A DNA stretch of 64,000 nt from an uncultured delta proteobacterium (GTDB lineage Bacteria; Myxococcota_A; Polyangia; Polyangiales; Polyangiaceae): contig CAWAIF010000003.1 in NCBI GenBank assembly GCA_963782055.1, forward strand, positions 1,376,001 through 1,440,000, read 5' to 3'. Position 1 is the first letter of the stretch; each line of letters opens with the position of its first letter. The notes below the pieces were generated by a model that worked only from the letters and a program-made list of their open reading frames with translations, ran no database searches and had not been told where the DNA came from. Below, one piece after another: positions 5,521 through 63,696 of this stretch. A program made the position numbers and the translations under genes.

Positions 5521-6774
5521 TCACCGGGTCTTCGGCGGCGCGTGCCCCGCGGGCTTCTTCCCCGCCGGCTTCTTCGCGTCCTTGGCGCCCTTCGCGTCCT
5601 TCGCCTCGGCCGGCTTCGGGGGCTTCTTCGGGTCGGTCACGTCCAGCGTCACGGCGACGGTGCCCTTGTCGCTGTCGAGCTGCGTCTCCGGGACCACCTG
5701 CATGTCGTCGCGGCCCTTGTCGTGGTGCAGCTTCTGGATCCTGGCGATGTCCTCCATCACCTTCTTGCGGGAGAAGACCTCCTTCGGCTTGCCGGTGAGG
5801 AGCTTCTGGTAGGCGGCCTTCCCCGCGAGCAGATCGCCCTTCACGCCGTAGTGGCTCACCTTGAAGATGGGGCCCTCCTTGACGTCGAAGACGATGGACT
5901 CCTTGTCCCCGCTGCGCTCCACCTTCTGGTGCACCTCCGAGACGAGCATCCCGCGGTCGTACATGAGCGCCTGGATCTGCACCGTCGCGCGGTCCAGGCG
6001 ATCCTGGTCGATGACCATGCCGGGCGCGTTGACCTTGCCGCCTTCGGTGTCGACCAGGGCGCGTAGGTCGTCCTCCTTCAGGTTGGTGAGGCCTGTGAAG
6101 GCGACCTTGTCGATGGTCACGCGCGGCCCCTCCTTCAGGGAGGCGCACACGTCCATCTCCCCTGGCGCGCCCTCGACCGAGCCCATGTCGAGCGTCGCGT
6201 CCAGGTAGCCCTTCGACCGCAGGTCGGACAGCAGGGCGGCCTTGCCGGAGACGAGGTCGATCGGGTTGTAGGGCCGGCCGGCGGCGACATGCAGCGCCTT
6301 GCCCAGGTCGGCGTCGTTCATGCCGGCGTCGCCGTGGACCACCACCTCGCCGAGCTGCGGCCGCGGGTGCAGCACGAACTGCAGCGCCAGCCCCTGCGGC
6401 GTGCTGTGCGCGGCGAGCTGCACGTCGTCCACGCCGCCCAGGGCGTACAGGCGGCGGATCGTCTGCTGCGCCTTGTGCAGGTCGAAGGTGTCGCCGGGCT
6501 TGAGGCCCACCACCGACTTCGCCTTCTCCGGGGAGCTGGCGCCTGTCACCGCGACGCTCGCCACCACGCCGGCGGGGATGGCGGTGTCGGCGTGCGCGGC
6601 GAAGGTGGCGGGCGCCGCGAGATCGTGCTTCTCACAGGCGGCGGCGCGGCGCTCCTGGGGCGAGGCGGCGGGGCGCAGCAGCAGCGGCGGCCCGGAGGAG
6701 GTGGTGGCGGGCTTCGGCTCGGGACCGCAGGCGAACAGGACGCCGAGCGCGAGCGCCGCGGCGACGCGCTTCAC
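5521..6774 (-). CDS. Lipoprotein with tandem POTRA domains and no beta-barrel
   Basis: LFAC lipobox; POTRA-like repeats (IRRLYALG, LRSKGYLDA, EGPRVTIDKVAFTG, YDRGML, EGPIFKV); Lys/Pro-rich tail. Confidence 0.75.
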   Translation of the reverse strand: MKRVAAALALGVLFACGPEPKPATTSSGPPLLLRPAASPQERRAAACEKHDLAAPATFAAHADTAIPAGVVASVAVTGASSPEKAKSVVGLKPGDTFDLHKAQQTIRRLYALGGVDDVQLAAHSTPQGLALQFVLHPRPQLGEVVVHGDAGMNDADLGKALHVAAGRPYNPIDLVSGKAALLSDLRSKGYLDATLDMGSVEGAPGEMDVCASLKEGPRVTIDKVAFTGLTNLKEDDLRALVDTEGGKVNAPGMVIDQDRLDRATVQIQALMYDRGMLVSEVHQKVERSGDKESIVFDVKEGPIFKVSHYGVKGDLLAGKAAYQKLLTGKPKEVFSRKKVMEDIARIQKLHHDKGRDDMQVVPETQLDSDKGTVAVTLDVTDPKKPPKPAEAKDAKGAKDAKKPAGKKPAGHAPPKTR

Positions 6775-7421
6775 ATCCCCTCCAGTCGGATCTCGACGTA
6801 CGTCGAGCCGCGCAGCTTGGTGAGCATGTCGGTGCGGACCTTGTCGGCGCGCTCGTTGGCGATCTGGTTCATCAAGAGCGGGCGCGCCTCGTCGAAGGAC
6901 TTCATCTTCGAGGGGTCCTTGGAGTGCTTCTTGATGTCCTCATAGCGCTGGCGCAGCTCACCCTCGCCGATCTGCAGGGAGGTCTGCGCCTTGAGGATGA
7001 TGAGCTTGCCCTCCACGAACTGGTGGCGCACCTCCGCGCGGAAGTCCGCCTCCGTCATGCCCTGGCCCTTCGCCGCGGAGAGCACCTTCTGCACGGTCAC
7101 CCCGTTCTGCTGGGCGAGGCGCTCGATGCCGGCGGTCACCTCGGCGTCGGTCACCTCGATGTGGAGGCGGGCGGCCTCGTCGTCCTCCAGGGTCTCGTCC
7201 ACCAGGCGCTCGCAGATCTCGTGCATCAGCGCGGCCTCCGCCTTGGGACGATCCGCCGCGGGCTGCGCGGCGACGGCCTTCAGGAAGGGGTGCGCGTGGA
7301 CGCGGACCTCGCTCTCGAGGATGACGTGATCGCCGACGACGGCGGCGATGCGATCGAAGGGCTGCGCCGACGAGACGTCGGCGAGCGCCAGGCCGGAGAG
7401 TAGTATGGGCAGGGCAAACAC
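6771..7421 (-). CDS. SurA N-terminal-domain chaperone-like protein
   Basis: DRIAAVVGDHVILESEV...C-terminal LRGSTYVEIRL; no PPIase domain seen. Confidence 0.8.
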   Translation of the reverse strand: MFALPILLSGLALADVSSAQPFDRIAAVVGDHVILESEVRVHAHPFLKAVAAQPAADRPKAEAALMHEICERLVDETLEDDEAARLHIEVTDAEVTAGIERLAQQNGVTVQKVLSAAKGQGMTEADFRAEVRHQFVEGKLIILKAQTSLQIGEGELRQRYEDIKKHSKDPSKMKSFDEARPLLMNQIANERADKVRTDMLTKLRGSTYVEIRLEGM

Positions 7422-8195: not shown

Positions 8196-8263
8196 GCGGG
8201 AGCTCGCTTCGCTCGCTCGGGCGGGGAGGATGGTCTGGGCGCTGGTGGCGGGGTGTGGACGGA
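8192..8263 (-). repeat. Partial inverted copy of the DUF559-associated repeat
   Basis: Reverse complement reads tccgtccacaccccgccaccagcgcccagaccatcctccccgcccgagcgagcgaagcgagc, matching the copies at 23928 and 20522. Confidence 0.85.
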
Positions 8264-8327
8264 AGCGTACGGGCTCGGCCGCAGGAGGCGCGCGAGAACG
8301 GTAGGTGCCTTGATGGGGGCGTCAGGG

Positions 8328-18608: not shown

Positions 18609-19121
18609 ATGGTCATCGCTACACGCCTCTCGGCCGCGGCGGCGCTGCTGGTCCCGATGCTCCTGGCGTGCGGGGGCGAGGCTGCGGGTGATGGAGACGG
18701 GGGCGACGACGCGACGGCCGACGCGCCGCTCGCCGACGGCGGGCGGGGCGATGGTGGCGATTCGGGTGCCGACGCCCCCGCCGACGCCGGGGACGAGAGC
18801 GCGACGGCGATCTCGCTGCACCTGAAGTGTGCGGAGGGCGATCAGTGTGAAGGCGGCGTCTGTTGCGCGACGCTCGCCTTCGGTGGCGACTGCGTGCTCG
18901 ACGAGATCTCGCCCGCCTGCACCCCATCGAGCGGGTGCCCCACCACGCTCCAGCCTTTCTGCGGCGGCGACGAGACCGTGCAGCTCTGCGACAGCAACGC
19001 GGACTGCACCGAGCCGGGCTACGACAGGTGCTGCACCTTCCAGATCACCGGCCACGCCAGCTCGCTGACGCTGTGCGCGAGCCAGCAGATGGTCCAATCC
19101 GCGGACGCGTCGTGCCCCTGA
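18609..19121 (+). CDS. Cys-rich lipoprotein
   Basis: LLAC lipobox; DAG linker; many paired Cys. Confidence 0.75.
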   Translation: MVIATRLSAAAALLVPMLLACGGEAAGDGDGGDDATADAPLADGGRGDGGDSGADAPADAGDESATAISLHLKCAEGDQCEGGVCCATLAFGGDCVLDEISPACTPSSGCPTTLQPFCGGDETVQLCDSNADCTEPGYDRCCTFQITGHASSLTLCASQQMVQSADASCP

Positions 19122-19298
19122 GCCACGCGCAGGCTTGCAGCGTACGGACGGCGCTCGGGGGCTGCTTCCATCAGGGAAGCCCCGCCACGTCCACCGGCAC
19201 GTGGCTCTCCTTGGTCGTCCCGAAGAGCAACGGGGTGGTCGCGCTCCCGGCGAACGGAGGTGCGCACGGGTGATGAAGCGACAACACACGGTGTGCGG

Positions 19299-19343
19299 AA
19301 ACGCGCGGTCCTCTGGACGGGGGGGCCGCGCGTTTTCGTTTTG
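19299..19343 (+). terminator. Probable intrinsic terminator
   Basis: aaacgcgcggtcc...ggccgcgcgttt stem followed by ttcgtttt. Confidence 0.55.
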
Positions 19344-19464
19344 TGGTTCCGATGGACTGAGATGGCGACAGAATCTCAGCCGGTTCCGTGGACACCCCGA
19401 GAGGCCCGAAGATGCGCCAATCGTTCGACCGGTCCACGAGACCGGGGGAGGATCAGTCGTCCTG

Positions 19465-19896
19465 ATGCGCAACAATCACCACCCATCCCCGTCGAAGCCG
19501 CCCCTCGGCGCCGCCCTCCCCCGCGCAGCCTGCTGCGTATTCCTGCTTGCCTGCAGCACGGCGCCCGCCTCCCCCGACGCCGACGCGAGCACCGACGCCG
19601 CCGCCTGCCCCGACGCCAGGCCCGGCTGCTACTGGCTCCACTGCGGCGATCCCTTCGTCCCGGGTCTCACCTGCGTGGACGGCGCCTGGGTGTGCGACCG
19701 GGGAGCCACCGATCCGTCGCAGGGCTGCCCCTGTCCCGTCGTGGGACCCGACCCGCCGCCATATTGCTACAACTGCGACGGAGGCCGGGTAGGGGAGTGG
19801 TCCTGCAACAGCGCGACGCGCGCGTGGGAGTGCGCGGACGGCGGCTACACCACCCGCGACGCGCCCGCCTGCACCGCCGACGCCGGCGCCGACTGA
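19465..19896 (+). CDS. Cys-rich lipoprotein
   Basis: LLAC lipobox; two CxDGxWxC-like units; DAGAD end. Confidence 0.7.
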   Translation: MRNNHHPSPSKPPLGAALPRAACCVFLLACSTAPASPDADASTDAAACPDARPGCYWLHCGDPFVPGLTCVDGAWVCDRGATDPSQGCPCPVVGPDPPPYCYNCDGGRVGEWSCNSATRAWECADGGYTTRDAPACTADAGAD

Positions 19897-19912
19897 CGCG
19901 CGCGGGTCCGGC

Positions 19913-20290
19913 TCACCTCCCGCCCCTGAGCGCCGCGCGCACCATCCCCGCCGCACGCTTCGCGTTCTCCTCCACCACCTCCGCCTCGATCCGCAGCACC
20001 CGGAACCCCAGCGCCTCGATCACCGCCTGCCGCGCCGCATCCGCCTCCGCATGCCCCGGCTCCCGGTGCACCCCGCCGTCCACCTCCACCACCAGCCGCT
20101 CGCTCAGCGCGACGAAGTCCACGATGTAGCTCCCCGCCAGCACATGCTGCCGCCTGAACTTCACCCCGCCGCACCGTCGCCCCCGCAGCTCCCGCCACAG
20201 CATCGCCTCCGATCGCGTCGCCTCCTCCCGCCGCATCCGCCGCGCGTGGTGATGAAGGAAGAAGAGAGAGGGAGCTTCGTGCGGTGCCAT
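19913..20290 (-). CDS. DUF559 / Vsr-like endonuclease
   Basis: ARRMRR..T.SE..LW..LR, FRRQH, YIVDF, LVVEVDGGVH, D..R, GFRVLR. Confidence 0.9.
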   Translation of the reverse strand: MAPHEAPSLFFLHHHARRMRREEATRSEAMLWRELRGRRCGGVKFRRQHVLAGSYIVDFVALSERLVVEVDGGVHREPGHAEADAARQAVIEALGFRVLRIEAEVVEENAKRAAGMVRAALRGGR

Positions 20291-20403
20291 GCCCTCCCCA
20301 CAGCGACAGAAGCGTGACAGCCGCAGTGAAGCCACCCGCGATCCCAAGGAAGGCTGGCGCGCTTCTTTCGCTCCCAGGGCGTGGCACCGCACGAAGCTCC
20401 CTC
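20268..20403. repeat. 28-bp inverted repeat with 80-nt loop overlapping the DUF559 start codon
   Basis: gagggagcttcgtgcggtgccatgccct (20268-20295) vs agggcgtggcaccgcacgaagctccctc (20376-20403); 1 mismatch. Confidence 0.9.
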
Positions 20404-20521
20404 GCACGCTCCTGCGCAACCTCGAGGGGAGGCACACCGCGGGGGGAGGGCCCCGTTCCCTAGTGTTCGCCGTCGGGGAGAGCGGGCACGCGCACGGGCA
20501 TGGCCCCATCATCGTCGATAG

Positions 20522-20648
20522 CCCGCCTACCAGCGCCCAGACCATCCTCCCCGCCCGAGCGAGCGCGAGCGAGCGATGGGCAAGGGGAGGAGCCGCGCGC
20601 GGACCGCTCACCCGCTGCGCGTGAGCGGGAGCACGCGGCAGGCGGGGC
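20522..20648. repeat. Multi-hairpin REP-like repeat, full copy
   Basis: accatcctccccgcccgagcgagcg...ggggaggagccgcgcgcggaccgctcac...gtgagcgggagcacgcggcagg. Confidence 0.9.
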
Positions 20649-21203
20649 CTACCCCACCACCCTCCCCACCAGAAGCGCCAGCATCCGCTCCAGCTCCCCC
20701 GCGCTCCCCGCAGCCGCGCCGAGCCCGTCCGCCGACCGGTCGAGCAGCGTGGCGATGCGCGGCGCGAGCCGGCCGCCGACGTGACGGCAGCGAGCGAGGT
20801 GCTTCTGCAGAGAGGCGACGTACAGGGCGTGGGCCGACTCGCTCTCCTTGCCGCCGACGGCGTTCATGGCCTCGAGCAGCTCCGCGGCGTGGCGCGAGCT
20901 GTGGACGAGCGCGTACATCTCCAGGTGCTTGCTGGCGAGCGAGGCGAGCACCGCCGCCTCCGGCGACCGCGCCCGGCCCGCGGCGGCCTCCGCCCGCGCG
21001 TGCATGGCCTCTCCCAGCGTGGTGATGACGGCGGCGAAGACCGCCTCCTTGTTCGGGAAGTGGGCGTACGCCGTGGCCTTGGCGACACTGGCCTCCGCCG
21101 CGATGGCCTCCATCGAGGTGTGGCGGAAGCCGTACGCACTGAAGAGGCGTGCGGCCGCGTCCAGCAGCGCCACGCGCGTCTTGTTCGGCCTCACGGGCTT
21201 CAT
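20649..21203 (-). CDS. TetR-family transcriptional regulator
   Basis: LLDAAARLFSAYGFRHTSMEAIAAEASVAKATAYAHFPNKE. Confidence 0.9.
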   Translation of the reverse strand: MKPVRPNKTRVALLDAAARLFSAYGFRHTSMEAIAAEASVAKATAYAHFPNKEAVFAAVITTLGEAMHARAEAAAGRARSPEAAVLASLASKHLEMYALVHSSRHAAELLEAMNAVGGKESESAHALYVASLQKHLARCRHVGGRLAPRIATLLDRSADGLGAAAGSAGELERMLALLVGRVVG

Positions 21204-21293
21204 CGAAGACCTTCGAGATTAGCGCCGTTCGGCGCGCCCGGGATCGCCGTCCGACGTATTGAACGATCCAGGTACATATCGTATGGTCCGTCC

Positions 21294-22145
21294 ATGCCCG
21301 TTTCACGCGCCGTTCTCATCACCGGGTGCTCCTCCGGCCTCGGCAAGGCCACCGCCATCCAGCTCGCGAAGAAGGGGTGGACCGTCTACGCCACCGCCCG
21401 CAAGACGGCGGACCTGGCGGAGGCGGAGGCGGCGGGCTGCCGGCTGCTCGCCCTCGACGTGACCGACGAGGCGTCGATGAAGGCCGCGGTCGCCGCCGTC
21501 GAGGTCGAGCACGGCGCCGTCGGCGTGCTCGTCAACAACGCGGGCTACTCCCAGTCGGGCGCCTTCGAGAGCGTGCCGATGGACCGCGTGCGCCGGCAGT
21601 TCGAGACCAACGTCTTCGGCCTGGTGCGCCTCACCCAGCTCGTGCTCCCCGGCATGCGCAAGCAGCGCTGGGGGCGCGTCGTGAACCTGAGCTCCATGGG
21701 CGGCAAGCTCGTCTTCCCGGGCGGCGGCTTCTACCACGCGACCAAGTACGCGGTCGAAGCGCTCAGCGACGCGCTGCGCTTCGAGGTCCGCGGCTTCGGG
21801 ATCGACGTGATCGTCATCGAGCCCGGGCTCATCAAGAGCGGCTTCGCCGAGGCGGCGGCCGCGGCGATGAAGGGCGACGGCGAGGTGGCGGAGGCCTACG
21901 CAGACTTCGACGCAGCGGTGGCGCGCTCGACGAAGGAGGTCTACGAGAAGGGCCCCCTCGCCAAACTGGCGGGCGTGCCGGAGGACGTCGCCCGGACCAT
22001 CGGCAAGGCGCTCGCGGCCAGGCGGCCGAAGACGCGATACACCGTGTCCCTCTCGGCGAAGGTGTTCCTCACGCAGCGCGCGCTGATGAGTGACCGCGCG
22101 TGGGACTGGATGATGCGCCAGTCCATGCCCTCCCCAGGCGCGTGA
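21294..22145 (+). CDS. Short-chain dehydrogenase/reductase
   Basis: TGCSSGLG, VNNAG, YHATK. Confidence 0.93.
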   Translation: MPVSRAVLITGCSSGLGKATAIQLAKKGWTVYATARKTADLAEAEAAGCRLLALDVTDEASMKAAVAAVEVEHGAVGVLVNNAGYSQSGAFESVPMDRVRRQFETNVFGLVRLTQLVLPGMRKQRWGRVVNLSSMGGKLVFPGGGFYHATKYAVEALSDALRFEVRGFGIDVIVIEPGLIKSGFAEAAAAAMKGDGEVAEAYADFDAAVARSTKEVYEKGPLAKLAGVPEDVARTIGKALAARRPKTRYTVSLSAKVFLTQRALMSDRAWDWMMRQSMPSPGA

Positions 22146-22153
22146 CGCCCTAC

Positions 22154-22381
22154 TCAGTACGTCCCCTGGAACATGAAGCCGCCGTGGCACGCGGGCGTAC
22201 TGGCGCCGGCGTCCAGCGGCTCGCAGTCGTAATGGACCACGTCGGGCGTGCTGCAGTCCGCGCCGGAGCTGCTGCACGAGAGGACCGCCATCGCCCCCGC
22301 CGACAGGACGAGAGCCCCGGCCACGACGGCGCAGCGACAGGCGACGGACAGCGCTCCACGCGCGCCGCGACCGAAGGACAT
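22154..22381 (-). CDS. Small Cys-rich lipoprotein, possibly truncated
   Basis: AVLSC lipobox-like motif; CEPLDAG. Confidence 0.4.
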   Translation of the reverse strand: MSFGRGARGALSVACRCAVVAGALVLSAGAMAVLSCSSSGADCSTPDVVHYDCEPLDAGASTPACHGGFMFQGTY

Positions 22382-22524
22382 TCGTGCCCTCACGAGGGGG
22401 ATACGGAAAGCGTAGCCCGGGAGCGTGCACTCGGTCCGGAAACAAACTGCGAGCCCGCGAACGCCACAAAGCCTCATTCAACCTTCTCGCTCGTGCCGAC
22501 CCCTGCCGCCCCGCATCCGCCTCT

Positions 22525-22964
22525 GGATGCCCCATGCGCATGTCGACGGGCGCCGAGGGGACGTAGATCCGGACGCTGCGCGGCAGGCTCAGCACCGCGA
22601 CGCGAGCACCGCCGCGAGCTCGGCGATGTAGCTCGGATCCCGGCCAACGCGCGCGAGCGCGCCGCGAACCGCGATCTCGATCACGTCGTCGACCGACTCG
22701 ACGCGGCCCGACGGGTCGCGAACATGGACGGGCACGAGCTGCACCGCTCCCCGCTTGGTCGCCTTGTCACACCGTAGTTGCCAGCACCACCACCCGAGCG
22801 TCGCTCGCCGAATGCCGTGCCGCCGTGCGACCTCGTCGATCGAGCCCACGCGACCGACCTCGCGAACCAGTTGCTCCCACTCCGCTCGTGAACGACGCGC
22901 TGCCATCACGGCAGACTCCACGATCACCTCGACACCCGCGAGACGTCCATCGGCGGACGGTTAC
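22525..22964 (-). mobile_element. IS66-family remnant (left end, tnpA, truncated tnpB)
   Basis: Terminal GTAACCGTCCGCCG at 22964; tnpA-like ORF overlapping MLSLPRSVRIYVPSAPVDMRMG (IS66 TnpB N-terminus), then broken; no tnpC. Confidence 0.8.
22589..22906 (-). CDS. tnpA: IS66 accessory protein TnpA-like HTH
   Basis: RSRAEWEQLV...VARRHGIRRATLGWW...LVPVHV. Confidence 0.7.
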   Translation of the reverse strand: MAARRSRAEWEQLVREVGRVGSIDEVARRHGIRRATLGWWCWQLRCDKATKRGAVQLVPVHVRDPSGRVESVDDVIEIAVRGALARVGRDPSYIAELAAVLASRC

Positions 22965-23026
22965 GCCGCAGGCGATACGCAAACCGCGAGCAGCGCGCCG
23001 CGCGCGAGGTGGCCGCATTTGGAGAC

Positions 23027-23485
23027 TCATCCCTCGCCACCTGGACGTCTTGCTATCCGCCAGTCCCGCAAAAGCTCCTCCGGGTTGTCGCCCTCGGCCC
23101 GCTCGTAGAAGTCGCGAATCTCGATCGGAAACTTACGAACGAGTCCCTGGCGCCAAATCGCCATGAACCTTCGGACCTCCACCATGCTCGCAGTCGCATC
23201 ACTATAGTCAAGTAGCGCACCAACGAGCGCATTGGATACATCCGCATTCCGAGGCCGCAGCTCCACAGCGCGGCGCGCCGCTTCCACAGCCTCTCCGGTG
23301 CGCCCCAGATCGCTTAGCAGCTCATACAGAACGAGCCATCCGGCCGCACTGGCAGGATCCAGTGCCAGCGCTCGCTGAAAGGCAGCAACAGCCTCCCCGC
23401 GCTCGCCCCGCTCACGGAGCTCGAACGCCTCCTTGAATGCCGCCTCACGCTCGCCCTCATCAGGACCCCTTGTCTCCTGCGGCAC
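23027..23485 (-). CDS. TPR-repeat protein
   Basis: EAVAAFQRALALDP, EAVEAARRAVELRP; lower GC than the flanks. Confidence 0.7.
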   Translation of the reverse strand: MPQETRGPDEGEREAAFKEAFELRERGERGEAVAAFQRALALDPASAAGWLVLYELLSDLGRTGEAVEAARRAVELRPRNADVSNALVGALLDYSDATASMVEVRRFMAIWRQGLVRKFPIEIRDFYERAEGDNPEELLRDWRIARRPGGEG

Positions 23486-23669
23486 GTGGCCCTCCTTGCC
23501 GAGTCAGCGGCAACCGTAGCATGCACTACTCCCTCACTCATCATCCAAGTCACCCGAGCTTCGTATGCCGCGTCGGCCGTTCTTCAGCTGCTGGAGCATA
23601 GGAAACGCTAGCGCGAGCGGGCGCGAAAGTTTGCGGAAGCGATCTTACGCGAAGTCGTGCGGTTTGCTC

Positions 23670-23879
23670 TCCGCGGACGATGCGCTTCGTGAGGTCGACA
23701 ACTTGATTGCAACTCTCCGAAGGGGTGCACTCCCACCGCGCCTCGATCTTGAAATCCTCTTCGCGTCCACGGGGCCGATCCAGGAGGTGAGCCTGAGCAG
23801 CGGATGGGCGCAGCCGTTTCTCGCGCTCGCGAGTCGCTTCGATGCCGCAATGGCGGAGGTCTACAGGTCGGCGTCCTGA
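23670..23879 (+). pseudogene. 3' remnant of a small hypothetical gene
   Basis: ADDALREVDNLI...LFASTGPIQEVSLSSGW...LASRFD reads protein-like, but the 5' part does not. Confidence 0.4.
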
Positions 23880-23927
23880 GGTCGGCGGACCCCACTCGCG
23901 GGAGAGCCCCAGTCCCCTTCGTCCTCC

Positions 23928-24064
23928 TCCGTCCACAGCCCGCCACCACCGCCCAGACCATCCTCCCCGCCCGAGCGAGCGCGAGCGAGCGATGGGCCGG
24001 GGGAGGAGCCGCGCGCGGACCGCTCACGCGCTGCGCGTTAGCGGGAGCACGCGGCAGGAGGGGC
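23928..24064. repeat. Multi-hairpin REP-like repeat, stand-alone full copy
   Basis: Same sequence as 20522-20648 and 27468-27590 with no adjacent nuclease gene. Confidence 0.9.
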
Positions 24065-24082
24065 GTATCATCATCTCCCCCC

Positions 24083-24838
24083 GTGTCCGCCCCTCTCCGC
24101 CCGCGCCTCCAAGTCATCGCCCTCGCCCCCCTCCTGTCCGCATGCGCCGGAACCCACGCCGCCCCCCACCCGGCCGCGCCTCCCCCCCGCCCGACCTCCG
24201 CCCAATCCGCGCCGCCCCCCGCGCCCGCGCCGGGCCATACGGAGCAGATGCCCCCCGCCTCCGCCGACGCCCACTCCGTCGGCTGCATCGGCTGGAACCC
24301 CCCCGCCCGCCGCGCCGTCTGCATCACCGGCGAGTCCTCCATCCAGCAAGGCGACAATCTGGTCGTCGAGGAGCTCGGCGGGGACGCCACCTTCGACTGG
24401 TTGAAGACCCCGGGCCAGTCCTTCGACGCCGCCCCGAGCCCCGCCGCGGTGACCCGCCTGCGCGCGCTCCTCGCGGCCGGCGCCTACACCGCGCTCCCCG
24501 CCGGCCGCACCCTCGCGCCGGGCGAGGCGATCCCCTGGCCCGGCACGCACCTCGTCTTCCGCTACGCCCGCCAGTCGCGTCCGGACGTGGAGACGGACGA
24601 GGGCTCGTGGAGCGACGTCACCGATCGCATCGAGATCGACTGCGGCGCCGGCAAGCGCACCCTGTTCGAGCGAGAGATCCAGGGCGCCGGCGACGGGCCG
24701 GCGATCCTGCGCGGCGCGGCGCAGCAGCACCTGGTGCTCGTCGAGTGGGCGCCCACCTGGGCGCTGGAGGGCGACTCCGGCGGCGCGGTGCAGGCGACGC
24801 TCATCGACACCGCCGCCGAGCGCTGCGCCGATCCCTGA
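24083..24838 (+). CDS. Hypothetical lipoprotein
   Basis: LSAC lipobox; Pro-rich linker. Confidence 0.65.
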   Translation: MSAPLRPRLQVIALAPLLSACAGTHAAPHPAAPPPRPTSAQSAPPPAPAPGHTEQMPPASADAHSVGCIGWNPPARRAVCITGESSIQQGDNLVVEELGGDATFDWLKTPGQSFDAAPSPAAVTRLRALLAAGAYTALPAGRTLAPGEAIPWPGTHLVFRYARQSRPDVETDEGSWSDVTDRIEIDCGAGKRTLFEREIQGAGDGPAILRGAAQQHLVLVEWAPTWALEGDSGGAVQATLIDTAAERCADP

Positions 24839-24863
24839 CCGCCCGCCGCCCGCCGCCGGCCCG

Positions 24864-25346
24864 CTACTTCGAAGACGAAGGCGCCGCCGGCGCCCCCGCG
24901 AGCACCCCGCACGTCCGCACGCGCTTCACCTCCGTCTGCGTCCCGTAGGGGATGAACGTCCCGAGCACGAACACCGAATCGGCGAAGTGCCTGAGCGACT
25001 CCTGGTCCCGGAAGGCGACGCGCACCCCGCACTCGTGCTTGGGCCCCACCACCGCCGGCACGGTGAAGGTCGGATCGATCGATTGATAGAAGTGCCCCGC
25101 CCAGAACACGTCGCACTCGCCGATCGACACCGACTCGACGCCCGGCAGCCGCTCCAGCGCCTCCTTGGCGCGGTCGAACCCCTTCCGCGCGTCTGCCGCC
25201 GCCGAGGCGTCGTCGCAGGTCACGCCGGTGATCGCCAGGGATGGATGCGCGCTGCTGACCGGGGATGCAGGCGCGACGGCCGGCGGCGCCGGTGACCCAC
25301 ACGCGACGACGACGACCGAGGCCGTCGCCAGGAGTCCTCTGTGCAT
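24864..25346 (-). CDS. Hypothetical lipoprotein
   Basis: VVAC lipobox. Confidence 0.65.
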   Translation of the reverse strand: MHRGLLATASVVVVACGSPAPPAVAPASPVSSAHPSLAITGVTCDDASAAADARKGFDRAKEALERLPGVESVSIGECDVFWAGHFYQSIDPTFTVPAVVGPKHECGVRVAFRDQESLRHFADSVFVLGTFIPYGTQTEVKRVRTCGVLAGAPAAPSSSK

Positions 25347-25606
25347 GATCGACTCCATATGGAGTCCTGCGCGCGACGTCAAAGGTGGCGCGCCGCGCAC
25401 TCGTCGTCGGCAGGGTGAAGGTGCCGCCGCCCCCTGCCTGCGGAACCGCCCCGCCCCTTAGTGGTCACCCCGCCCCCACCCGGTCCGATCCAGGACCATG
25501 ACGCCACTGTCTTGCTCTGCGGACCGCACGCCGCACCGATCGCCGCGGCACCCGCAAGAAACCGCCACCATCCCTCCCGGCACGGCCCTTGCGATGGGTA
25601 GCCACC

Positions 25607-26173
25607 ATGCGCTCCCTCCCTCTCGCCGGCTTCCTCGCCTTCGTCGTCTCCGCCACCGCCTTCGCCGCCGGCTGCGGCTGCGATCCGGGCAACAACGGAT
25701 ATCGCGCGCCCCTCGGCTTCCAGCCCTCCAGCGTCGAGGCCTTCCGCACGCCGGCGCGCTGCGGCGCGGCCAACCCGGACGCGGCGCCGGGCGACGTGCT
25801 CTCCCTCGAGCTCGTCGGCGCGACGGACGTCGCCCCGCCGTACACCGCGATGGACCTGGACGTGACGCGCAGCGCGCCGCAGGGACAGGCGGTGCCGCTG
25901 GTGGTGAGCCAGACCTCCCAGGGCACCGTCACGGCGAAGTCGACCGACGGCTCCATCCAGTTCACCTTCACCGTGGGATCGAACGCGGGCGAGATCGACT
26001 CCGCGGCGCTCGCCTCGGTGGTCGTGACCCTCGACACGATCCCGACGGCCGACGGCGAGCCCCTCGCCGCCGAGCTCCACCTCCGCTTCGACGACGGCAG
26101 CGTGCTCGATCAGTCCTACAGCGCTCCGGTGCACACCCCGCTCTTTCGCTGCGTCGCGAGCCCGACGCAGTGA
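25607..26173 (+). CDS. Hypothetical secreted protein or lipoprotein
   Basis: Signal peptide ending AAGC; beta-rich body. Confidence 0.7.
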   Translation: MRSLPLAGFLAFVVSATAFAAGCGCDPGNNGYRAPLGFQPSSVEAFRTPARCGAANPDAAPGDVLSLELVGATDVAPPYTAMDLDVTRSAPQGQAVPLVVSQTSQGTVTAKSTDGSIQFTFTVGSNAGEIDSAALASVVVTLDTIPTADGEPLAAELHLRFDDGSVLDQSYSAPVHTPLFRCVASPTQ

Positions 26174-26190
26174 GCTAGACTCGGATCGCC

Positions 26191-26607
26191 ATGCTGCGGC
26201 GCGCGCTTCCCCTTCTCCTCCTGCTCGGCACCGCGTGCGGCCCGAGCACGCCGGAGGGGCAAGAGGAGGTGCTGTTGCCCTTTCCGGATGACGGCGGGGT
26301 GACGTGGGACGCGTGGGTCGGCCCCTTCGTCCGCGACTACTGCGTCCAGTGCCACGAGCCCAGCGCGCCCTGCGGCGGCAACGGGTGCCACGCGGCGGGC
26401 AATCCCGCGCTGTTCGACCTGCACGACAAGCAGGTGGCGGTCACCCTCTCGCAGACCATCCGGTGCGGCATCGCCACGACGCAGGATCCGAGCTGGAACT
26501 GCAGCGTGTCGGCGAAGAAGTTCCCGGTCGAGAACGGCGGCAACCCGCTCCCCACCGACGAGCAGCGCGCGCTGGTGGTCGGCTGGGTCGACGCCGGCTG
26601 CCCCTGA
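26191..26607 (+). CDS. Lipoprotein c-type cytochrome
   Basis: GTAC lipobox; CVQCH plus CGGNGCH; C-terminal WVDAG. Confidence 0.7.
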   Translation: MLRRALPLLLLLGTACGPSTPEGQEEVLLPFPDDGGVTWDAWVGPFVRDYCVQCHEPSAPCGGNGCHAAGNPALFDLHDKQVAVTLSQTIRCGIATTQDPSWNCSVSAKKFPVENGGNPLPTDEQRALVVGWVDAGCP

Positions 26608-26853
26608 CGGGCGCGTTGCTGCGGCCAGATCGCGTCGGTCGTCCCGGCGCCAGCCTCCCCTTGTGAGCGCGCACCCTACCGCCTCCCCGCCGAGAGGCCC
26701 GACCCCGTACGCGGAGGCATGGGTTCGCCTTCGACGTCGCCGGCTCATACGACGGCTCTCGTTCGGGGTGGTGGGGGACGAACTGGACGGTGATGGCGAT
26801 CGGGATGGGCCCGACCCAGAGTTGGAGCCCTTGATGGCGCCGCAGGCGCCGCC

Positions 26854-27231
26854 TCACCTCTCGCCCCTGAGCGCCGCGCGCACCATCCCCACCGCCCGCT
26901 TCGCGTTCCCCTCCACCACCTCCGCCTCGATCCGCAGCACCCGGAACCCCAGCGCCTCGATCACCGCCTGCCGCGCCGCATCCGCCTCCGCATGCCCCGG
27001 CTCCCGGTGCACCCCGCCGTCCACCTCCACCACCAGCCGCTCGCTCAGCGCGACGAAGTCCACGATGTAGCTCCCCGCCAGCACATGCTGCCGCCTGAAT
27101 TTCGCGCCGCCGCACCGCCGCTCCCGCAGCTCCCGCCACAGCATCGCCTCCGACCGCGTCGCCTCCTCCCGCCGCATCCGCCGCGCATGGTGATGGAGGA
27201 AGAAGAGAGAGGGAGCTTCGTGCGGTGCCAT
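26854..27231 (-). CDS. DUF559 / Vsr-like endonuclease
   Basis: 125 aa; 5 amino-acid differences from copy 1. Confidence 0.9.
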   Translation of the reverse strand: MAPHEAPSLFFLHHHARRMRREEATRSEAMLWRELRERRCGGAKFRRQHVLAGSYIVDFVALSERLVVEVDGGVHREPGHAEADAARQAVIEALGFRVLRIEAEVVEGNAKRAVGMVRAALRGER

Positions 27232-27344
27232 GCCCTCCCCACAGCGACAGAAGCGTGACAGCCGCAGTGAAGCCACCCGCGATCCCAAGGAAGGCTGGCG
27301 CGCTTCTTTCGCTCCCAGGGCGTGGCACCGCACGAAGCTCCCTC
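27209..27344. repeat. 28-bp inverted repeat with 80-nt loop overlapping the DUF559 start codon
   Basis: Identical to 20268-20403. Confidence 0.9.
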
Positions 27345-27467
27345 GCACGTTCCTGCGCAACCTCGAGGGGAGGGACACCGCGGGGGGGGAGGGCCCTGTT
27401 CCCTACTGTTCGCCGTCGGGGGAGAGCCGGCACGGGCACGCGCGCGAACCCATCATCGTCGATAGTT

Positions 27468-27590
27468 CGCCACCAGCGCGCCGACCATCCTCCCCGCCCG
27501 AGCGAGCGAAGCGAGCGATGGGCAAGGGGAGGAGCCGCGCGCGGACCGCTCACGCGCTGCGCGTGAGCGGGAGCACGCGGCAGGAGGGGC
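27468..27590. repeat. Multi-hairpin REP-like repeat, full copy
   Basis: Includes a perfect ccgctcacgcg-ctg-cgcgtgagcgg hairpin at 27546-27570. Confidence 0.9.
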
Positions 27591-27598
27591 CCATCCCC

Positions 27599-28297
27599 TC
27601 AAGGCCCCGAATAAAACACCACCCGCGCCCCGAGCACGAGCGCGTGCCGGTCAATCGACCGAGCCCCCACATAGTTGTATTCTACATCCGGCCCCAGCGC
27701 GAGATGCACGTGCTTCCCCCGCAGCACGTTCCACTCGTAGAACGCGCCCACCCCGAGGAAGGACTGCACCCCGCTCGCCCCCGGGTACGGACCCCGGCTC
27801 GCCTCGAGCTGCGCCTGTCCGATCCCGAACGCCGCCATGAACCCCAGATCGCGCAGCCACGGCGCCACGTAGAAGAGCGGAAACGCCTCCACCCGGAAGC
27901 CGAAGGCGGTGCTCATCGACGACCAGTCCCCGTTCTGGAGGAGGCCGCTCCCGCCCCAGATGCCGACGCTGAAGACATCCGCCAGCGCGGCCTCGATGAA
28001 GAGCGCGCCGGTGCCGCCGAACATGTTGCCGCCCGCGGCGTAGTACGCCGGATCGCCGATCTTGGAGGACTCGTTGGGGTAGCCGGACGCCGTGCCGAGG
28101 AGGAAGCCGCCGGTGATCCCCGCGACGAAGCCGCTGCGCCGCGTCGCAGGCGCCGCGGTGGGCTCCTCGTCGCCTTTCGAGGTGCGCGTGGCGGTGGGCG
28201 GAGGCGCGGGGGCGCGCGGGGTCTGGGGCGCCTGGGCCCGCGCCACGGCGGGTGCGAACGCGAGGGAGGCGGCGAGGAGCGCGGCAGGGCGACGCAC
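27599..28297 (-). CDS. Putative small outer-membrane beta-barrel protein
   Basis: Signal peptide; alternating aromatic/Gly strands; ends LGARVVFYSGP. Confidence 0.65.
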   Translation of the reverse strand: MRRPAALLAASLAFAPAVARAQAPQTPRAPAPPPTATRTSKGDEEPTAAPATRRSGFVAGITGGFLLGTASGYPNESSKIGDPAYYAAGGNMFGGTGALFIEAALADVFSVGIWGGSGLLQNGDWSSMSTAFGFRVEAFPLFYVAPWLRDLGFMAAFGIGQAQLEASRGPYPGASGVQSFLGVGAFYEWNVLRGKHVHLALGPDVEYNYVGARSIDRHALVLGARVVFYSGP

Positions 28298-28403
28298 GGC
28301 CTCGCTTCTAGCCCGAAACGGCCCCGGACGGAAACCCGCGGCGGGCCCGAAGTTGCGCCCCGCGCCGGCCAGGCGTAACTATCTCAGGGTCCGGAGGCAC
28401 CAA

Positions 28404-29495
28404 ATGGGCGACGAGCGCAAAGATTACGATCCGGCGGCGGGCGACATCACGCGCCGCAAGTTCATCGGCGGGGCGGCGGCGGCGACCGCGGCGGTCTCCC
28501 TGCTCGGCGGGGAGAAGAGCGCGCTCGCGGGGACGCACCTCCCCCCGGCCAAGCCCATGGCAGCCGCGCCACCCAAGGGCTTCGTCCCCTTCAGCGCCCC
28601 CGGCCACGTGGTGAAGGTGAGCAAGCCCGGCTCGCTGCAGCACAACCAGCTGTACCCCAAGCCGGACGACGCCAAGCTCATGCTGGAGCGCGCCCTCACC
28701 GAGCTGACGGGCAAGGCCTCGCTGGCGGAGGCGATCAAGCTCTTCGTGCACCCCGACGACAAGGTGTGCGTGAAGGTCAACGGCATCGCCAAGGCGAACA
28801 TGGCGACGAACAAGGAGCTGGTGCTCCCCTTCCTCGAGGGGATGATCGCGGCGGGCATCCCGGCGCGCAACATCACCGTGCTCGAGCAGTACTACGGCTT
28901 CCTCGCCGGGACCCGCATCACCGCGGCCAACGTGCCGGCGGGCGTCAACGTCGCGACCCACAACAACAAGGACGCGACGATGGACTTCCGGATGATCACC
29001 GGCACCGGCGTCCGGACGAAGTTCGTCCGCGTGCTGACGGAGTCGACGGCGCTCATCAACTTCGCCCTCATCAAGGATCACTCCATCTGCGGCTACACCG
29101 GCACCCTGAAGAACATGACGCACGGGTGCACCGTCAACCCGCAGGACTTCCACCTGCACCACGCCAGCCCGCAGATCGCCCTGCTCGCCGACCAGGACGT
29201 GCTCAAGAGCCGCCTCCGCCTGACGATCACCGACGCCTTCAAGGTGATGGCCCACGGCGGCCCGCTCGACAAGATGCCGCAGTACCGCAAGCCGTACGAG
29301 GCGGTCTTCACCTCCACCGACCCCGTCGCGATGGACACCATCGGCTGGGAGATCGTGGAGCAGGCGCGAAAGAAGTTCGGCCTGCGGACGCTGACGGAGG
29401 AGGGCCGCCCGCCGGCGTACATCAAGGCGGCAGGGGATTTGGGCCTGGGCGTCGCCGACCGGTCGAGGATCCGCCTGCAGGAAGTGGCGATCTAG
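28404..29495 (+). CDS. Tat-exported DUF362-domain protein
   Basis: TRRKFI twin-arginine signal; KVCVKVN, KDHSICGYTGTLKNMTHG, DPVAMD. Confidence 0.8.
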   Translation: MGDERKDYDPAAGDITRRKFIGGAAAATAAVSLLGGEKSALAGTHLPPAKPMAAAPPKGFVPFSAPGHVVKVSKPGSLQHNQLYPKPDDAKLMLERALTELTGKASLAEAIKLFVHPDDKVCVKVNGIAKANMATNKELVLPFLEGMIAAGIPARNITVLEQYYGFLAGTRITAANVPAGVNVATHNNKDATMDFRMITGTGVRTKFVRVLTESTALINFALIKDHSICGYTGTLKNMTHGCTVNPQDFHLHHASPQIALLADQDVLKSRLRLTITDAFKVMAHGGPLDKMPQYRKPYEAVFTSTDPVAMDTIGWEIVEQARKKFGLRTLTEEGRPPAYIKAAGDLGLGVADRSRIRLQEVAI

Positions 29496-60052: not shown

Positions 60053-60265
60053 GTGGCGCGCAGGCGTGTCTTTCCCAAGAAGTGCCGCTGCGGCTACGGG
60101 CTGGAGCACCCGCTCGTGGCACCGCGGCTGCACTTCTCCCCCATCGGCTGGGTCTTCCTGTGCCTCGGGGCCACGCCGTACCCGATCCGCGTGGACTACC
60201 TGTGCTGCCGCTGCAACGTGATGCTCGGGTCCACGCGGGAGCGGAAGGTCATGCGGACGTTCTGA
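60053..60265 (+). CDS. Small Cys-containing hypothetical protein
   Basis: CRCG...CCRC possible Zn-binding pair; divergent from glyS. Confidence 0.5.
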   Translation: MARRRVFPKKCRCGYGLEHPLVAPRLHFSPIGWVFLCLGATPYPIRVDYLCCRCNVMLGSTRERKVMRTF

Positions 60266-60278
60266 CCTCACCCTCCCA

Positions 60279-60305
60279 CCCCCTCTCCCTACGAGGGAGA
60301 GGGGG
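60279..60305. repeat. Perfect 12-bp REP-like hairpin
   Basis: ccccctctccct-acg-agggagaggggg. Confidence 0.8.
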
Positions 60306-60328
60306 GACAAGAGAGAGGACGCCACAAG

Positions 60329-60365
60329 GCGCTCGCTTCGCTCGGTCGGGCGGGGAGGATGTCTG
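60329..60365 (-). repeat. Partial inverted copy of the DUF559-associated repeat
   Basis: Reverse complement reads cagacatcctccccgcccgaccgagcgaagcgagcgc. Confidence 0.75.
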
Positions 60366-60385
60366 CGGCGTGCTACCACTGTGCG

Positions 60386-60841
60386 GTGACCTACCGCGAG
60401 CCGGACCAGGAGAGCCTCGCCGAGCTGGAGCAGGAACGGCGCGCGCGGGAGCAGGCGCGCGAGCGGTCGCGCGCCGCCGACGCCGCGGCCATCCGGGCGA
60501 TGAAGAGCCCCTTCCACGGCCTCGGGCGTCACGTGCCCCGCGGGATCACGCGCGTGGCGGTGTACGCGTCGCTCACCGGCGTGGTGTTCCCGCTGGTCGT
60601 GGCGACGCTCGCCGTGCTGGTGCGCCCGCCGGACGAGGTCTCCCCGGCCGCGGTGTGGGCGGTGCTCCTCGTCGGCTGTGGGGCGGGGCTCGTCGGCGTC
60701 GCCTGCGGCGTCGCGGCGCTCCTCTCGCCGTCGAGCGCGCGCCTCGCCGGCGTCGCCGCCGTGCTGACCGGGCTCTTCGCGCTGCCGTGCTCCCTCGGCT
60801 GCGCGGTCCTCGTGGCGCTGACGACGTCGGGGATGCGGTAG
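60386..60841 (+). CDS. Three-TM membrane protein, paralog A
   Basis: TYREPDQE...MKSPFHGLGRHVPRGITRV; paralog of 62994-63449. Confidence 0.7.
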   Translation: MTYREPDQESLAELEQERRAREQARERSRAADAAAIRAMKSPFHGLGRHVPRGITRVAVYASLTGVVFPLVVATLAVLVRPPDEVSPAAVWAVLLVGCGAGLVGVACGVAALLSPSSARLAGVAAVLTGLFALPCSLGCAVLVALTTSGMR

Positions 60842-62729: not shown

Positions 62730-62993
62730 CGGATGAGTCTAGCTCGGACGCGAGCGGGTGAGCAAAGAGCTGTCCGCCTGCTCCAACCAGCGCGCGACCG
62801 CGGGCAATCGCCTCGTCCAGCGTGAAGGCAACGGCGAGACGCGCGGTGTCGTCGAGCAGCTCGAGGAAGTCGCCCGTGGGCCGCGGCGCGCACCCGCCGT
62901 TCCGTCAGCGCCTCTCTCATCGGCCCCACGGCCCGCTCCACGACCTTCTCCAGGCGGAGCTCCGACCCCCGGGCCGCGTGCTACGACTGCGCG

Positions 62994-63449: not shown

Positions 63450-63696
63450 GCGGCCTGTTCGCGGAGGGCGCGGTGCGAGCGTCGGGTCGGGGTGTGGTGC
63501 CGGAGGAGAGGGGAGCGAGGACGTGCACCGCACGAGGGACGTGGCCGGCGCCGGTGCGGACCGCCGAAGCAGCGCTGGAAATCCTCGAGCAGTTCCCGAC
63601 CGTGGCATCCTTCGCCCCCGGCGTGACCGCCACCGCCGCCTTCACCCCACCAGAGGGCCTCGTCGCACCCGAGTTTCGGATGCCCGCGGACGCCGC

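What the first reader, a model, noticed from the sequence alone, without database searches (positions are those of the whole stretch)
19910..27590. Duplicated transposase-free DUF559 nuclease cassette: candidate self-mobilising element
Seen: two ~740-bp copies, 6941 bp apart, in the same orientation and in unrelated contexts. On the minus strand each reads multi-hairpin repeat, ~120-bp spacer, 28-bp inverted repeat, then a 125-aa DUF559 ORF. Homology stops a few nt after the stop codon and at ...gcacgcggcagg(c/a)ggggc on the other side. No transposase, terminal IRs or target duplication are visible. Both copies start within about 10 nt of the stop codon of a minus-strand gene. Known: DUF559 is a Vsr-like PD-(D/E)xK nuclease domain with no established physiological role. 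Inference: the nuclease plus structured leader form a mobile unit, analogous to RAYT/REP systems but with a different nuclease fold.
Basis: partly seen in the sequence, partly recalled or inferred. Interest (0 to 1): 0.85.

Follow-up and report, generated by a model that had tools for sequence, protein, structure and literature searches.

The report
Spreading nuclease with triplex-hairpin leader
A small gene of a DNA-cutting protein family, fused to a palindromic leader, sits at 19 places in this myxobacterium's genome and mostly at other places in six relatives, and the host genes just upstream have lost silent cytosines; it is likely a selfish element that would spread by breaking DNA and being copied in during repair, without a transposase.

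Summary
Confirmed, and larger than seen. The two copies (95% identical over 751 bp, no shared flanks) belong to a family: 19 DUF559 loci (11 intact) and 65 leader loci in this genome, and 8-24 matches in each of 6 same-genus genomes. In 18 orthologue pairs the site is filled in a relative and empty here. Catalytic-type residues are invariant in 43 of 43 proteins; dN/dS is 0.36-0.58. No RAYT and no C5 methylase were found. The 28-bp inverted repeat covers the start codon and covaries (30 of 39 pairs). The leader is a BoxC-like mirror/triplex layout with hairpins in its loops. In relatives 12 of 25 elements have a second, opposite-facing leader. Host genes just upstream lose silent C on the element's strand (0.19 vs 0.49); cause versus target choice is unresolved. 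Best reading (0.55): a selfish Vsr-fold nuclease element spread by break-and-copy repair. Cutting and mobility are untested. No paper searched links DUF559 to such repeats. This scan noted two-ended DUF559-BoxC cassettes before on other DNA (12 findings); I tested that link myself (40 of 57). The start-codon stem and flank skew were not in the notes I saw.

The parts
19913..20290 (-). Copy A: DUF559 (Vsr-fold) ORF, 125 aa; the element's 3' end lies at its stop codon
   Evidence: Pfam PF04480 E 8.4e-29; model pLDDT 87.4, best fold matches 3hrl and 3r3p; homology ends at the stop
20268..20403 (-). Copy A: start-codon stem; arms 20403-20376 and 20295-20268 (27 of 28 complementary) with a nested inner stem; predicted to hide the ribosome-binding site and ATG
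   Evidence: sequence; 30 of 39 pairs with compensatory change in 39 sequences, 0 of 500 shuffles as high
20404..20545 (-). Copy A: variable spacer
   Evidence: alignment of 17 genome copies
20546..20647 (-). Copy A leader: pyrimidine run Y1 (20647-20641, the G-variant that breaks the mirror at one position), hairpin 1 (20639-20592), mirror run Y2 (20590-20584), hairpin 2, purine run R (20552-20546)
20649..21203 (-). TetR-family gene upstream of copy A; last 30 codons have 2 C and 19 G at fourfold sites; not found in 6 of 6 same-genus genomes at E 1e-15
23930..24063 (-). Leader-only copy C, 91-93% identical to the leaders of A and B over 135-139 nt
26854..27231 (-). Copy B: DUF559 ORF, 125 aa
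27209..27344 (-). Copy B: start-codon stem; arms 27344-27317 and 27236-27209
27489..27589 (-). Copy B leader: Y1 (27589-27583), hairpin 1, Y2 (27532-27526), hairpin 2, R (27495-27489); exact mirror form
27599..28297 (-). Conserved host gene upstream of copy B (no Pfam match). Present in 6 of 6 relatives without a leader after it; flipped relative to its DUF362 neighbour only in this genome; last 30 codons 2 C:15 G against 8-10 C:6-8 G in the relatives
8202..8271 (+). 5'-deleted leader remnant (hairpin 2 and R) right after a GST gene, facing copies A, C and B across the accessory stretch
60330..60361 (+). Short leader remnant (half of hairpin 2 and R) next to a classical BoxC-like repeat at about 60265-60306

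Best explanation
The unit is a multi-copy leader-plus-DUF559 cassette whose sites differ between relatives, and it is likely a selfish element whose Vsr-fold nuclease would nick or break DNA so that repair copies the cassette onto the broken ends. Shown: copy number, filled and empty sites, genome-specific expansion, purifying selection with decayed copies, a conserved first pyrimidine run as 5' boundary, a 3' end at the stop codon, covarying stems, head-out pairs, C loss in the upstream flank. Inferred: the leader forms a triplex with hairpins and is the structure the protein recognises; a break leaves 3' single-strand tails, each of which is extended from a donor's leader end, and the tails are joined to each other (tail-to-tail pairs) or to other DNA (cargo, deletions, gene-less leaders); repeated exposure of that strand deaminates C and A and gives the flank skew; the start-codon stem keeps the nuclease untranslated in read-through transcripts from the host gene upstream.
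For: 19 DUF559 loci, 11 intact, and 65 leader loci in G000; 6 of 6 same-genus genomes with 8-24 matches. 18 orthologue pairs filled in a relative and empty in G000, 2 more shared; copy B's site empty in 6 of 6. The 11 G000 proteins form one side of a branch, support 93/55, below the tool's starred level. E28, D58, E69, D71, H75, D84 invariant in 43 of 43; D58-H75 spacing equals D196-H213 of I-Bth0305I; mean dN/dS 0.36-0.58 in 5 genomes. DUF559 is the only gene in the unit; no Y1 transposase in G000, no IS91 or IS110 transposase within 3 kb of 60 leaders. All 17 full start stems lie at a DUF559 start. Opposite-facing leader within 2.5 kb downstream in 12 of 25 elements, upstream in 0 of 27; 3 of 3 complete tail-to-tail ORF pairs overlap by 8-20 nt at their stops and come from different branches. 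Triplex-layout motifs flank 40 of 57 DUF559 genes from other groups against 1 of 53 control windows. Flank: fourfold C 0.185 against 0.490 +/- 0.024, 0 of 1000 resamples; T at twofold sites 0.28 against 0.10, A 0 of 110 against 8.5%; C-to-G 117 against G-to-C 22 within 120 nt, 189 against 179 at 501-900 nt. A DUF559 protein causes DNA-damage signalling in Caulobacter.
Against: No cutting, binding, expression or movement was measured. Leader-only copies have a preferred 3' end (28 of 45 at +172 to +202), which ragged repair does not predict. The skew may be target choice: 108 of 4923 leaderless genes also have 80% or more G in the last 30 codons against 34-42 in interior windows, and genes matched on those 30 codons decay similarly; skew against a youth proxy was not significant (rho -0.21, p 0.19). 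Dependence on element orientation is weak: p 0.019 for 9 opposite-strand genes in G000, 9 against 3 and 9 against 13 in relatives. The ORF itself is G-skewed in G000 (697 G, 98 C) but not in G002-G006. Gene-less classical BoxC repeats show a weaker skew on their other side, so a structure alone may do it. 9 of 62 G000 leaders, copy A among them, break the mirror at one position. Gene conversion between old sites would also give homology ending at the element's ends.
Confidence: 0.55

Rival explanations
1. The leader is a REP- or MITE-like repeat moved by an unlinked host or IS enzyme; DUF559 is a passenger that is spread among existing leaders by gene conversion.
For: Leader-only copies outnumber gene-bearing ones (about 47 to 18) and have a preferred 3' end. 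Two sites are leader-only in G000 and gene-bearing in a relative. The genome holds IS91-type transposases (20 matches). 32 gene-less BoxC repeats persist in the same genome.
Against: No Y1 transposase found; none of the IS91/IS110 genes within 3 kb of a leader. A passenger must still explain invariant catalytic-type residues, dN/dS below 0.6 and the same repeat-gene polarity in other phyla.
Confidence: 0.2
2. The true unit is two-ended (leader, gene, inverted leader) and DUF559 acts as a minimal transposase on both ends; one-ended copies such as A and B are relics or composites with cargo between distant ends.
For: 12 of 25 elements in relatives have an inverted leader within 2.5 kb; several fill spacers that are 1-150 bp in G000; in other phyla 23 of 57 genes have motifs on both sides, mostly head-out; G000 has 10 convergent against 1 divergent close pair.
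Against: A and B share exactly leader-to-stop and no right end; paired ends often come from different subfamilies; L058 is a single one-ended insertion in a spacer that is 9 bp in G000; the fold has no known strand-joining activity (own knowledge).
Confidence: 0.15
3. DUF559 is a host T:G mismatch repair enzyme and the repeats are regulatory; multiplication is incidental.
For: Vsr fold; Caulobacter VsrA was proposed to do this.
Against: No C5 cytosine methylase match in a 97% complete genome; 8 of 19 loci are broken; positions differ between relatives; 8 of 24 family genomes had no match.
Confidence: 0.06
4. Ordinary segmental duplication or misassembly.
For: Some tandem pairs elsewhere share flanks (C3 2259672/2267077, 5247539/5250497, 160 nt at 6010666/6005311); one contig break falls inside a leader.
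Against: A and B differ at 5% of sites, with 7 synonymous and 5 replacement changes, and share no flank; the family is in six independent assemblies.
Confidence: 0.02

Closest known systems
BoxC / PIT / TM intrastrand triplex repeats (Holder et al. 2015, PMC4666352; parts 1 and 6 of 10 and passages read; supplement not searchable)
   Same: Three-run layout (pyrimidine run, complementary purine run, mirror third run, T or A allowed in the third run), intergenic, multi-copy, linked to variable regions.
   Different: Runs are 6-8 nt, and the two loops carry hairpins of about 28-170 and 21-44 nt instead of 3-6 nt, so the TM consensus is not matched. The paper names no partner enzyme in the text I saw and found no link to mobile elements; here the repeat is fused to a nuclease gene.
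REP / REPIN - RAYT systems (PMC3116915, abstract; PMC3733652, passages)
   Same: Extragenic palindromes, inverted doublets, many gene-less copies, one dedicated nuclease-type gene among them.
   Different: Protein is Vsr-fold, not an HUH tyrosine transposase; no Y1 transposase found in the genome; the gene itself is multi-copy (RAYTs are usually single-copy, own knowledge) and often has a repeat on one side only.
EDxHD Vsr-like homing endonucleases (I-Bth0305I, PMC3239194, passages)
   Same: Same fold (3r3p, E 2.6e-4) and matching Asp-His spacing; precedent for a Vsr fold spreading its own gene by breaks and repair.
   Different: No intron or intein, no N-terminal DNA-binding repeats (125 aa in all), many non-allelic sites instead of one cognate site.
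Vsr very-short-patch repair nucleases and Caulobacter VsrA (PMC3424549, PMC1189080, 10.1101/2025.03.21.644545; passages)
   Same: Fold; DUF559 is grouped with Vsr.
   Different: No cytosine methylase partner found; 19 loci, many decayed, each tied to a structured leader.
IS10/IS50 protection from outside transcription (recalled; the search returned no paper)
   Same: A stem that hides the start signals only in transcripts entering from outside.
   Different: Different enzyme; here the stem is long and covaries into the first codons; no internal promoter was found.

Membership tests
DUF559 / Vsr-like nuclease fold | Pfam PF04480 above cut-off | tested here: met
   100.1 and 99.7 bits against 20.6
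DUF559 / Vsr-like nuclease fold | Vsr-type fold and conserved acidic and His residues | tested here: met
   Foldseek 3hrl E 8.9e-7, 3r3p 2.6e-4, 1vsr 0.046; E28, D58, E69, D71, H75, D84 invariant in 43 of 43
DUF559 / Vsr-like nuclease fold | Nuclease activity | not testable with these tools
   needs purified protein
BoxC / TM triplex repeat | TM consensus with 9-nt runs and loops of 3-6 and 3 nt | tested here: not met
   runs 6-8 nt; loop 2 is 21-44 nt in all but one call, loop 1 about 28-170 nt against the consensus
BoxC / TM triplex repeat | Pyrimidine run, complementary purine run and mirror third run | tested here: met
   44 of 62 G000 leaders and 30 of 39 relatives' leaders; mirror flips with subtype; eighth position covaries in 26 of 28 and 11 of 11
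BoxC / TM triplex repeat | Forms a triplex | not testable with these tools
   needs CD, NMR or footprinting
REP / REPIN - RAYT | Many extragenic palindromic copies | tested here: met
   65 leader loci; 42 of 62 within 40 nt after a same-strand stop, control 8.5%
REP / REPIN - RAYT | HUH (Y1) transposase gene flanked by the repeats | tested here: not met
   0 PF01797 matches in a 97% complete genome; control rang in 6 of 14
REP / REPIN - RAYT | Inverted doublets as the replicating unit | tested here: inconclusive
   10 convergent, 1 divergent, 12 direct close pairs among 64 leaders; 12 of 25 in relatives
REP / REPIN - RAYT | GTAG or CGTC end tag | not tested
   no count was made
EDxHD homing endonucleases | Vsr-like catalytic domain | tested here: met
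EDxHD homing endonucleases | Encoded in an intron or intein at a cognate site | tested here: not met
   intergenic; no Rfam match above a gathering score in window 19000-28500; sites differ between genomes
EDxHD homing endonucleases | N-terminal DNA-binding repeats | tested here: not met
   DUF559 covers residues 14-119 of 125
Insertion sequence / MITE | Transposase or recombinase gene in the unit | tested here: not met
   only DUF559 lies in the shared 751 bp
Insertion sequence / MITE | Terminal inverted repeats | tested here: inconclusive
   absent at copies A and B; inverted leader within 2.5 kb in 12 of 25 relatives' copies
Insertion sequence / MITE | Target site duplication | tested here: inconclusive
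   none visible at A or B; relatives too distant to compare junctions base by base
Vsr / Dcm very-short-patch repair | Partner C5 cytosine methyltransferase | tested here: not met
   0 PF00145 matches in G000; control rang in 9 of 14

The most novel reading that the evidence does not exclude
A class of bacterial mobile DNA with no transposase, recombinase or reverse transcriptase: a 125-aa Vsr-fold nuclease recognises a triplex-and-hairpin leader, breaks the chromosome, and has host repair cap each broken end with a copy of itself. This would give BoxC-type repeats their missing enzyme, explain their link to unstable regions, and leave a strand-specific mutational footprint that rewrites about 250 nt of silent sites in neighbouring host genes.
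Probability: 0.4. Interest if true: 0.9.

Novelty: new variant of a known kind. Interest (0 to 1): 0.74.

Why it matters
DUF559 is a very common domain without an agreed job, and BoxC/TM repeats are known to mark unstable regions by an unknown mechanism (PMC4666352). This family joins the two in a form that can be tested with one small protein and a 400-nt DNA. It has features that two-copy cases lack: 11 intact copies, empty sites, covariation for both a base-triple layout and a start-codon lock, and a measurable footprint in flanking genes. If the nuclease drives spread, it is a mode of mobility outside the usual transposase classes and a local mutator of host genes. It could also supply a compact structure-specific nickase.

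Tried and rejected
Rfam scan of window 19000-28500: one weak match below its gathering score. Single-sequence fold was useless (pLDDT 40.5); the 43-sequence fold was used. Sigma-70 promoter and intrinsic terminator scan of 19800-20800: 0 sites. Sequencing runs: none was listed, so no reads were laid and expression was not examined. Replication-strand explanation of the skew: no clear replichore signal, and both orientations are skewed in all three thirds of the contig. A general hairpin effect: 54 genes followed by other perfect hairpins show G fraction 0.43 against 0.47. A conserved T:G mismatch at the start codon as Vsr substrate: dropped, the position is fully paired in many relatives. Downstream-flank skew: none after the stop in 12 G000 copies (0.05 or less to 100 nt); the 'DN opp' rows were set aside because several are hits to facing DUF559 copies. 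RNA-templated copying: thought unlikely because the conserved end is 5' (inference). Link to the genome's IS91-type arrays: no such transposase within 3 kb of a leader. Base-exact 5' end by BLAST failed because alignments run into G-rich flanks. No complex prediction was run. Literature searches that found no link between DUF559 and repeats or mobility: (listings only, except the papers named as read).
Full report
Observation. The two copies are real. On the minus strand the ORFs are 20290-19913 (A) and 27231-26854 (B), 125 aa each, 120 of 125 residues identical, both DUF559. They are 6941 apart and 94.9% identical over 751 columns, from just before the first pyrimidine run to just past the stop, with no shared flank. 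The 28-bp inverted repeat overlaps the ORF start: its right arm holds part of the ribosome-binding site, the ATG and about 7 codons. A gene-less leader lies between the copies (24063-23930), and remnants lie at 8202-8271 and 60330-60361.

The family in this genome. The window is C3:1376001-1440000 of a 7.58-Mb, 3-contig, 97% complete genome. tblastn gave 24 pieces; one (E 0.003) was dropped as noise and the rest form 19 loci, 11 with an uninterrupted DUF559 frame and 8 frameshifted, interrupted or truncated. A Pfam search found no DUF559 outside these loci. A profile of the leader gave 66 hits, one a reverse self-hit, so 65 loci; 62 could be anchored at the first run and 17 of these precede a DUF559. 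All 17 full start stems lie at a DUF559 start. With a simple gene caller of my own, 42 of 62 leaders start within 40 nt after a same-strand stop, against 8.5% of intergenic positions. Leaders cluster: 23 neighbouring pairs within 15 kb against 7.7 expected, 10 convergent, 12 direct, 1 divergent. DNA downstream looks less like core genes than DNA upstream in 15 of 17 gene-bearing and 34 of 47 gene-less cases. Full copies end at the stop; 28 of 45 leader-only copies end at +172 to +202, the rest at +71 to +332.

Relatives. All 6 same-genus genomes have 8-24 matches at up to 59% identity over the full length; 16 of 24 family genomes and 2 of 16 other genomes of the order have any match. The best hits in a wider scan are titled Polyangiaceae or Polyangiales. 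I fetched 40 regions chosen for flank length, not all matches; they hold 49 hits that include the N-terminal part. The same architecture recurs. For 18 elements the upstream gene has a G000 orthologue (45% or more identity, aligned to the C-terminus) with no leader after it; two further sites are shared, leader-only in G000 and gene-bearing in the relative. Conversely, the gene upstream of copy B is present in 6 of 6 relatives with no leader after it. In all six it runs head-to-tail towards the DUF362 gene, and in 5 of 6 it neighbours the homologues of window genes 5521-7421. In G000 it is flipped and about 20 kb, holding A, B, C and the remnant, lie between. In a tree of 43 intact proteins the 11 G000 copies are one side of a branch (93/55, not starred); other genomes hold 2-4 lineages with local expansions (broken copies were left out).

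Protein. Mean pairwise dN/dS is 0.36-0.58 in the five genomes computed; A against B has 7 synonymous and 5 replacement changes. E28, D58, E69, D71, H75 and D84 are invariant in 43 of 43. The model (pLDDT 87.4) matches the Neisseria protein 3hrl, then the homing endonuclease I-Bth0305I, then Vsr. D58-H75 has the spacing of the I-Bth0305I residues D196-H213 (PMC3239194, passages); I did not superpose the sites. No Y1 transposase and no C5 methylase were found in G000, and none of the IS91 or IS110 transposases lies within 3 kb of the 60 leaders on C3.

Two structures. (1) Start-codon stem: in 39 sequences from 7 genomes, 97.1% of cells pair and 30 of 39 pairs show compensatory change, with matched insertions in both arms; 0 of 500 shuffles reach this and slid controls give 6-10 pairs. 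The sequences are related and the structure came from this alignment, so the control overstates, but the margin is wide. The first codons evolve under pairing. As RNA it would block translation of read-through transcripts (inference; the IS10/IS50 parallel is recalled, one search found no paper). Which strand folds is not settled for this stem. (2) Leader: pyrimidine run Y1, hairpin 1, mirror run Y2, hairpin 2, purine run R complementary to Y2. The mirror holds in 44 of 62 G000 leaders (9 carry a G variant, copy A among them; 9 were not resolved or did not match) and 30 of 39 relatives' leaders. The position of the T flips in Y1 and Y2 together between subtypes. Where Y2-R extends by one pair, Y1 matches it in 26 of 28 (T-A) and 11 of 11 (C-G) cases. 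Its reverse complement has the order of the class II triplex motif of Holder et al., formerly BoxC (PMC4666352), with hairpins in place of short loops. T or A both occur in the third run, as a purine-motif triplex allows. G-T pairs in the hairpins favour the sense strand (560 against 216 in 101 leaders). Triplex formation is predicted, not shown.

Ends. In relatives 12 of 25 elements have an opposite-facing leader within 2.5 kb downstream and 0 of 27 upstream; the pattern search misses some. Several such pairs fill spacers that are 1-150 bp in G000, while L058 is a single one-ended insert (12 sites were picked for display). In 3 of 3 complete tail-to-tail ORF pairs the stops overlap by 8-20 nt and the partners come from different branches, so they are not inverted duplicates. 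Outside the Polyangiaceae-type records, 40 of 57 DUF559 genes have a triplex-layout motif within 330 nt against 1 of 53 windows about 1 kb away, mostly in the same head-out polarity. The element here is therefore an elaborated, often one-ended form of a wider pairing that earlier notes of this scan had reported.

Flank skew. Host genes ending at a leader have fourfold-site C at 0.185 in the last 30 codons against 0.490 +/- 0.024 (40 genes, 0 of 1000 resamples), recovering over about 250 nt. T rises at twofold sites (0.28 against 0.10) and A vanishes (0 of 110 against 8.5%) (42 genes). The 18 orthologue pairs give 46 C:226 G with the element and 192:147 without. For copy B's neighbour the six relatives have 8-10 C:6-8 G and G000 has 2:15. 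Loss of C and A on one strand is the pattern of single-strand deamination (own knowledge). Against a causal reading: 108 of 4923 leaderless genes are as skewed at their ends, three times the interior rate, so there is either a pool of targets or a set of scars; the youth test was not significant; dependence on element orientation is weak; the ORF is skewed in G000 only; and 32 gene-less BoxC repeats show a weaker skew on their other side. The association is firm, the direction is open.

Mechanism. I favour break-and-copy (0.55): the nuclease nicks or breaks DNA, resection leaves the sense strand as a 3' tail, tails are extended from a donor's leader end and joined to each other or to foreign DNA. 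This one process would account for the conserved 5' start, tail-to-tail pairs of mixed origin, gene-less leaders, cargo, the flipped gene at copy B and the skew. Every step after 'multi-copy unit with conserved nuclease' is inferred. A DUF559 protein causes an SOS response in Caulobacter (10.1101/2025.03.21.644545, passages), which makes DNA damage plausible but also supports a repair role. Rivals: passenger on a repeat moved by another enzyme (0.2), minimal two-ended transposon (0.15), host repair gene (0.06), duplication or artefact (0.02).

Known systems and novelty. It works like a REP/RAYT system in population structure (PMC3116915, abstract; PMC3733652, passages) and like a homing endonuclease in fold and proposed mode, but fails defining tests for both, and it fails the TM consensus while meeting its layout. 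Nine searches of the held library gave no paper linking DUF559 to repeats or mobility; subscription journals are mostly not covered and the supplement of PMC4666352 could not be searched. Holder et al. state that the cause of instability at TM loci is unclear. The scan's own notes hold 12 findings on DUF559 with repeats in other genomes, 8 shown; look-ups by this sequence, by place and by the words start codon and skew returned nothing on this family. Verdict: real, a new variant of selfish nuclease elements, interest 0.74; 0.4 that it is a separate class of mobile DNA.

Noticed in passing
window 60265-60306; 32 copies genome-wide: Classical BoxC/TM-type repeats, separate from the leader family and with no DUF559 of their own found; genes ending on their purine-tail side have coding-strand G fraction 0.32 against 0.47 (18 genes).
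   Followed up: partly
G000, 108 genes listed: Genes with strongly G-skewed last 30 codons and no leader, three times the interior rate; possibly scars of lost elements or a target pool. A few are followed by simple GC-rich tandem repeats.
   Followed up: partly
L029:3776(+), L032:4008(+), L035 (minus), L036:4125(+): The same ~48-bp hairpin insertion interrupts four DUF559 copies of G004 at the conserved RRQH codons; a different ~65-bp hairpin interrupts the G000 copy near C3:1912580 at about the same place. Possibly a parasite of this element.
   Followed up: partly
downstream of the stop in 14 of 49 relatives' hits; G000 C3 1819910, 2260030, 2267435, 4287409: A pair of short palindromes about 20 bp apart (GCC, AT-rich core, GGC) follows many copies; about 4-8% expected by chance in G000. 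Absent at copies A and B.
   Followed up: partly
end of contig C1 and end of contig C2: The two contig ends hold the two halves of one leader, so the assembly broke inside the hairpin and C1 probably joins C2.
   Followed up: yes
G000 C3:6010666 and 6005311: About 160 nt of the upstream host gene's end is duplicated 5.4 kb away in front of a second element with a different leader subtype.
   Followed up: partly
window 60365-60840 and 62973-63450: Two paralogous membrane-protein-like ORFs, 82% identical over 300 nt, 2.6 kb apart; the first starts at the leader remnant.
   Followed up: no
window 22400-22930: Fragments that look like IS66 accessory genes (recalled resemblance; no Pfam match) between copies A and C.
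   Followed up: no
G000 C3:1154302-1155439: Two head-out leaders enclose what looks like a truncated reverse-transcriptase gene (recalled resemblance, not scanned).
   Followed up: no
G000 C3 after 2260398 and 2267803: A fragment resembling the C-terminal end of an IS91-type transposase (recalled resemblance) follows both copies, which are part of a 1.47-kb duplication.
   Followed up: no
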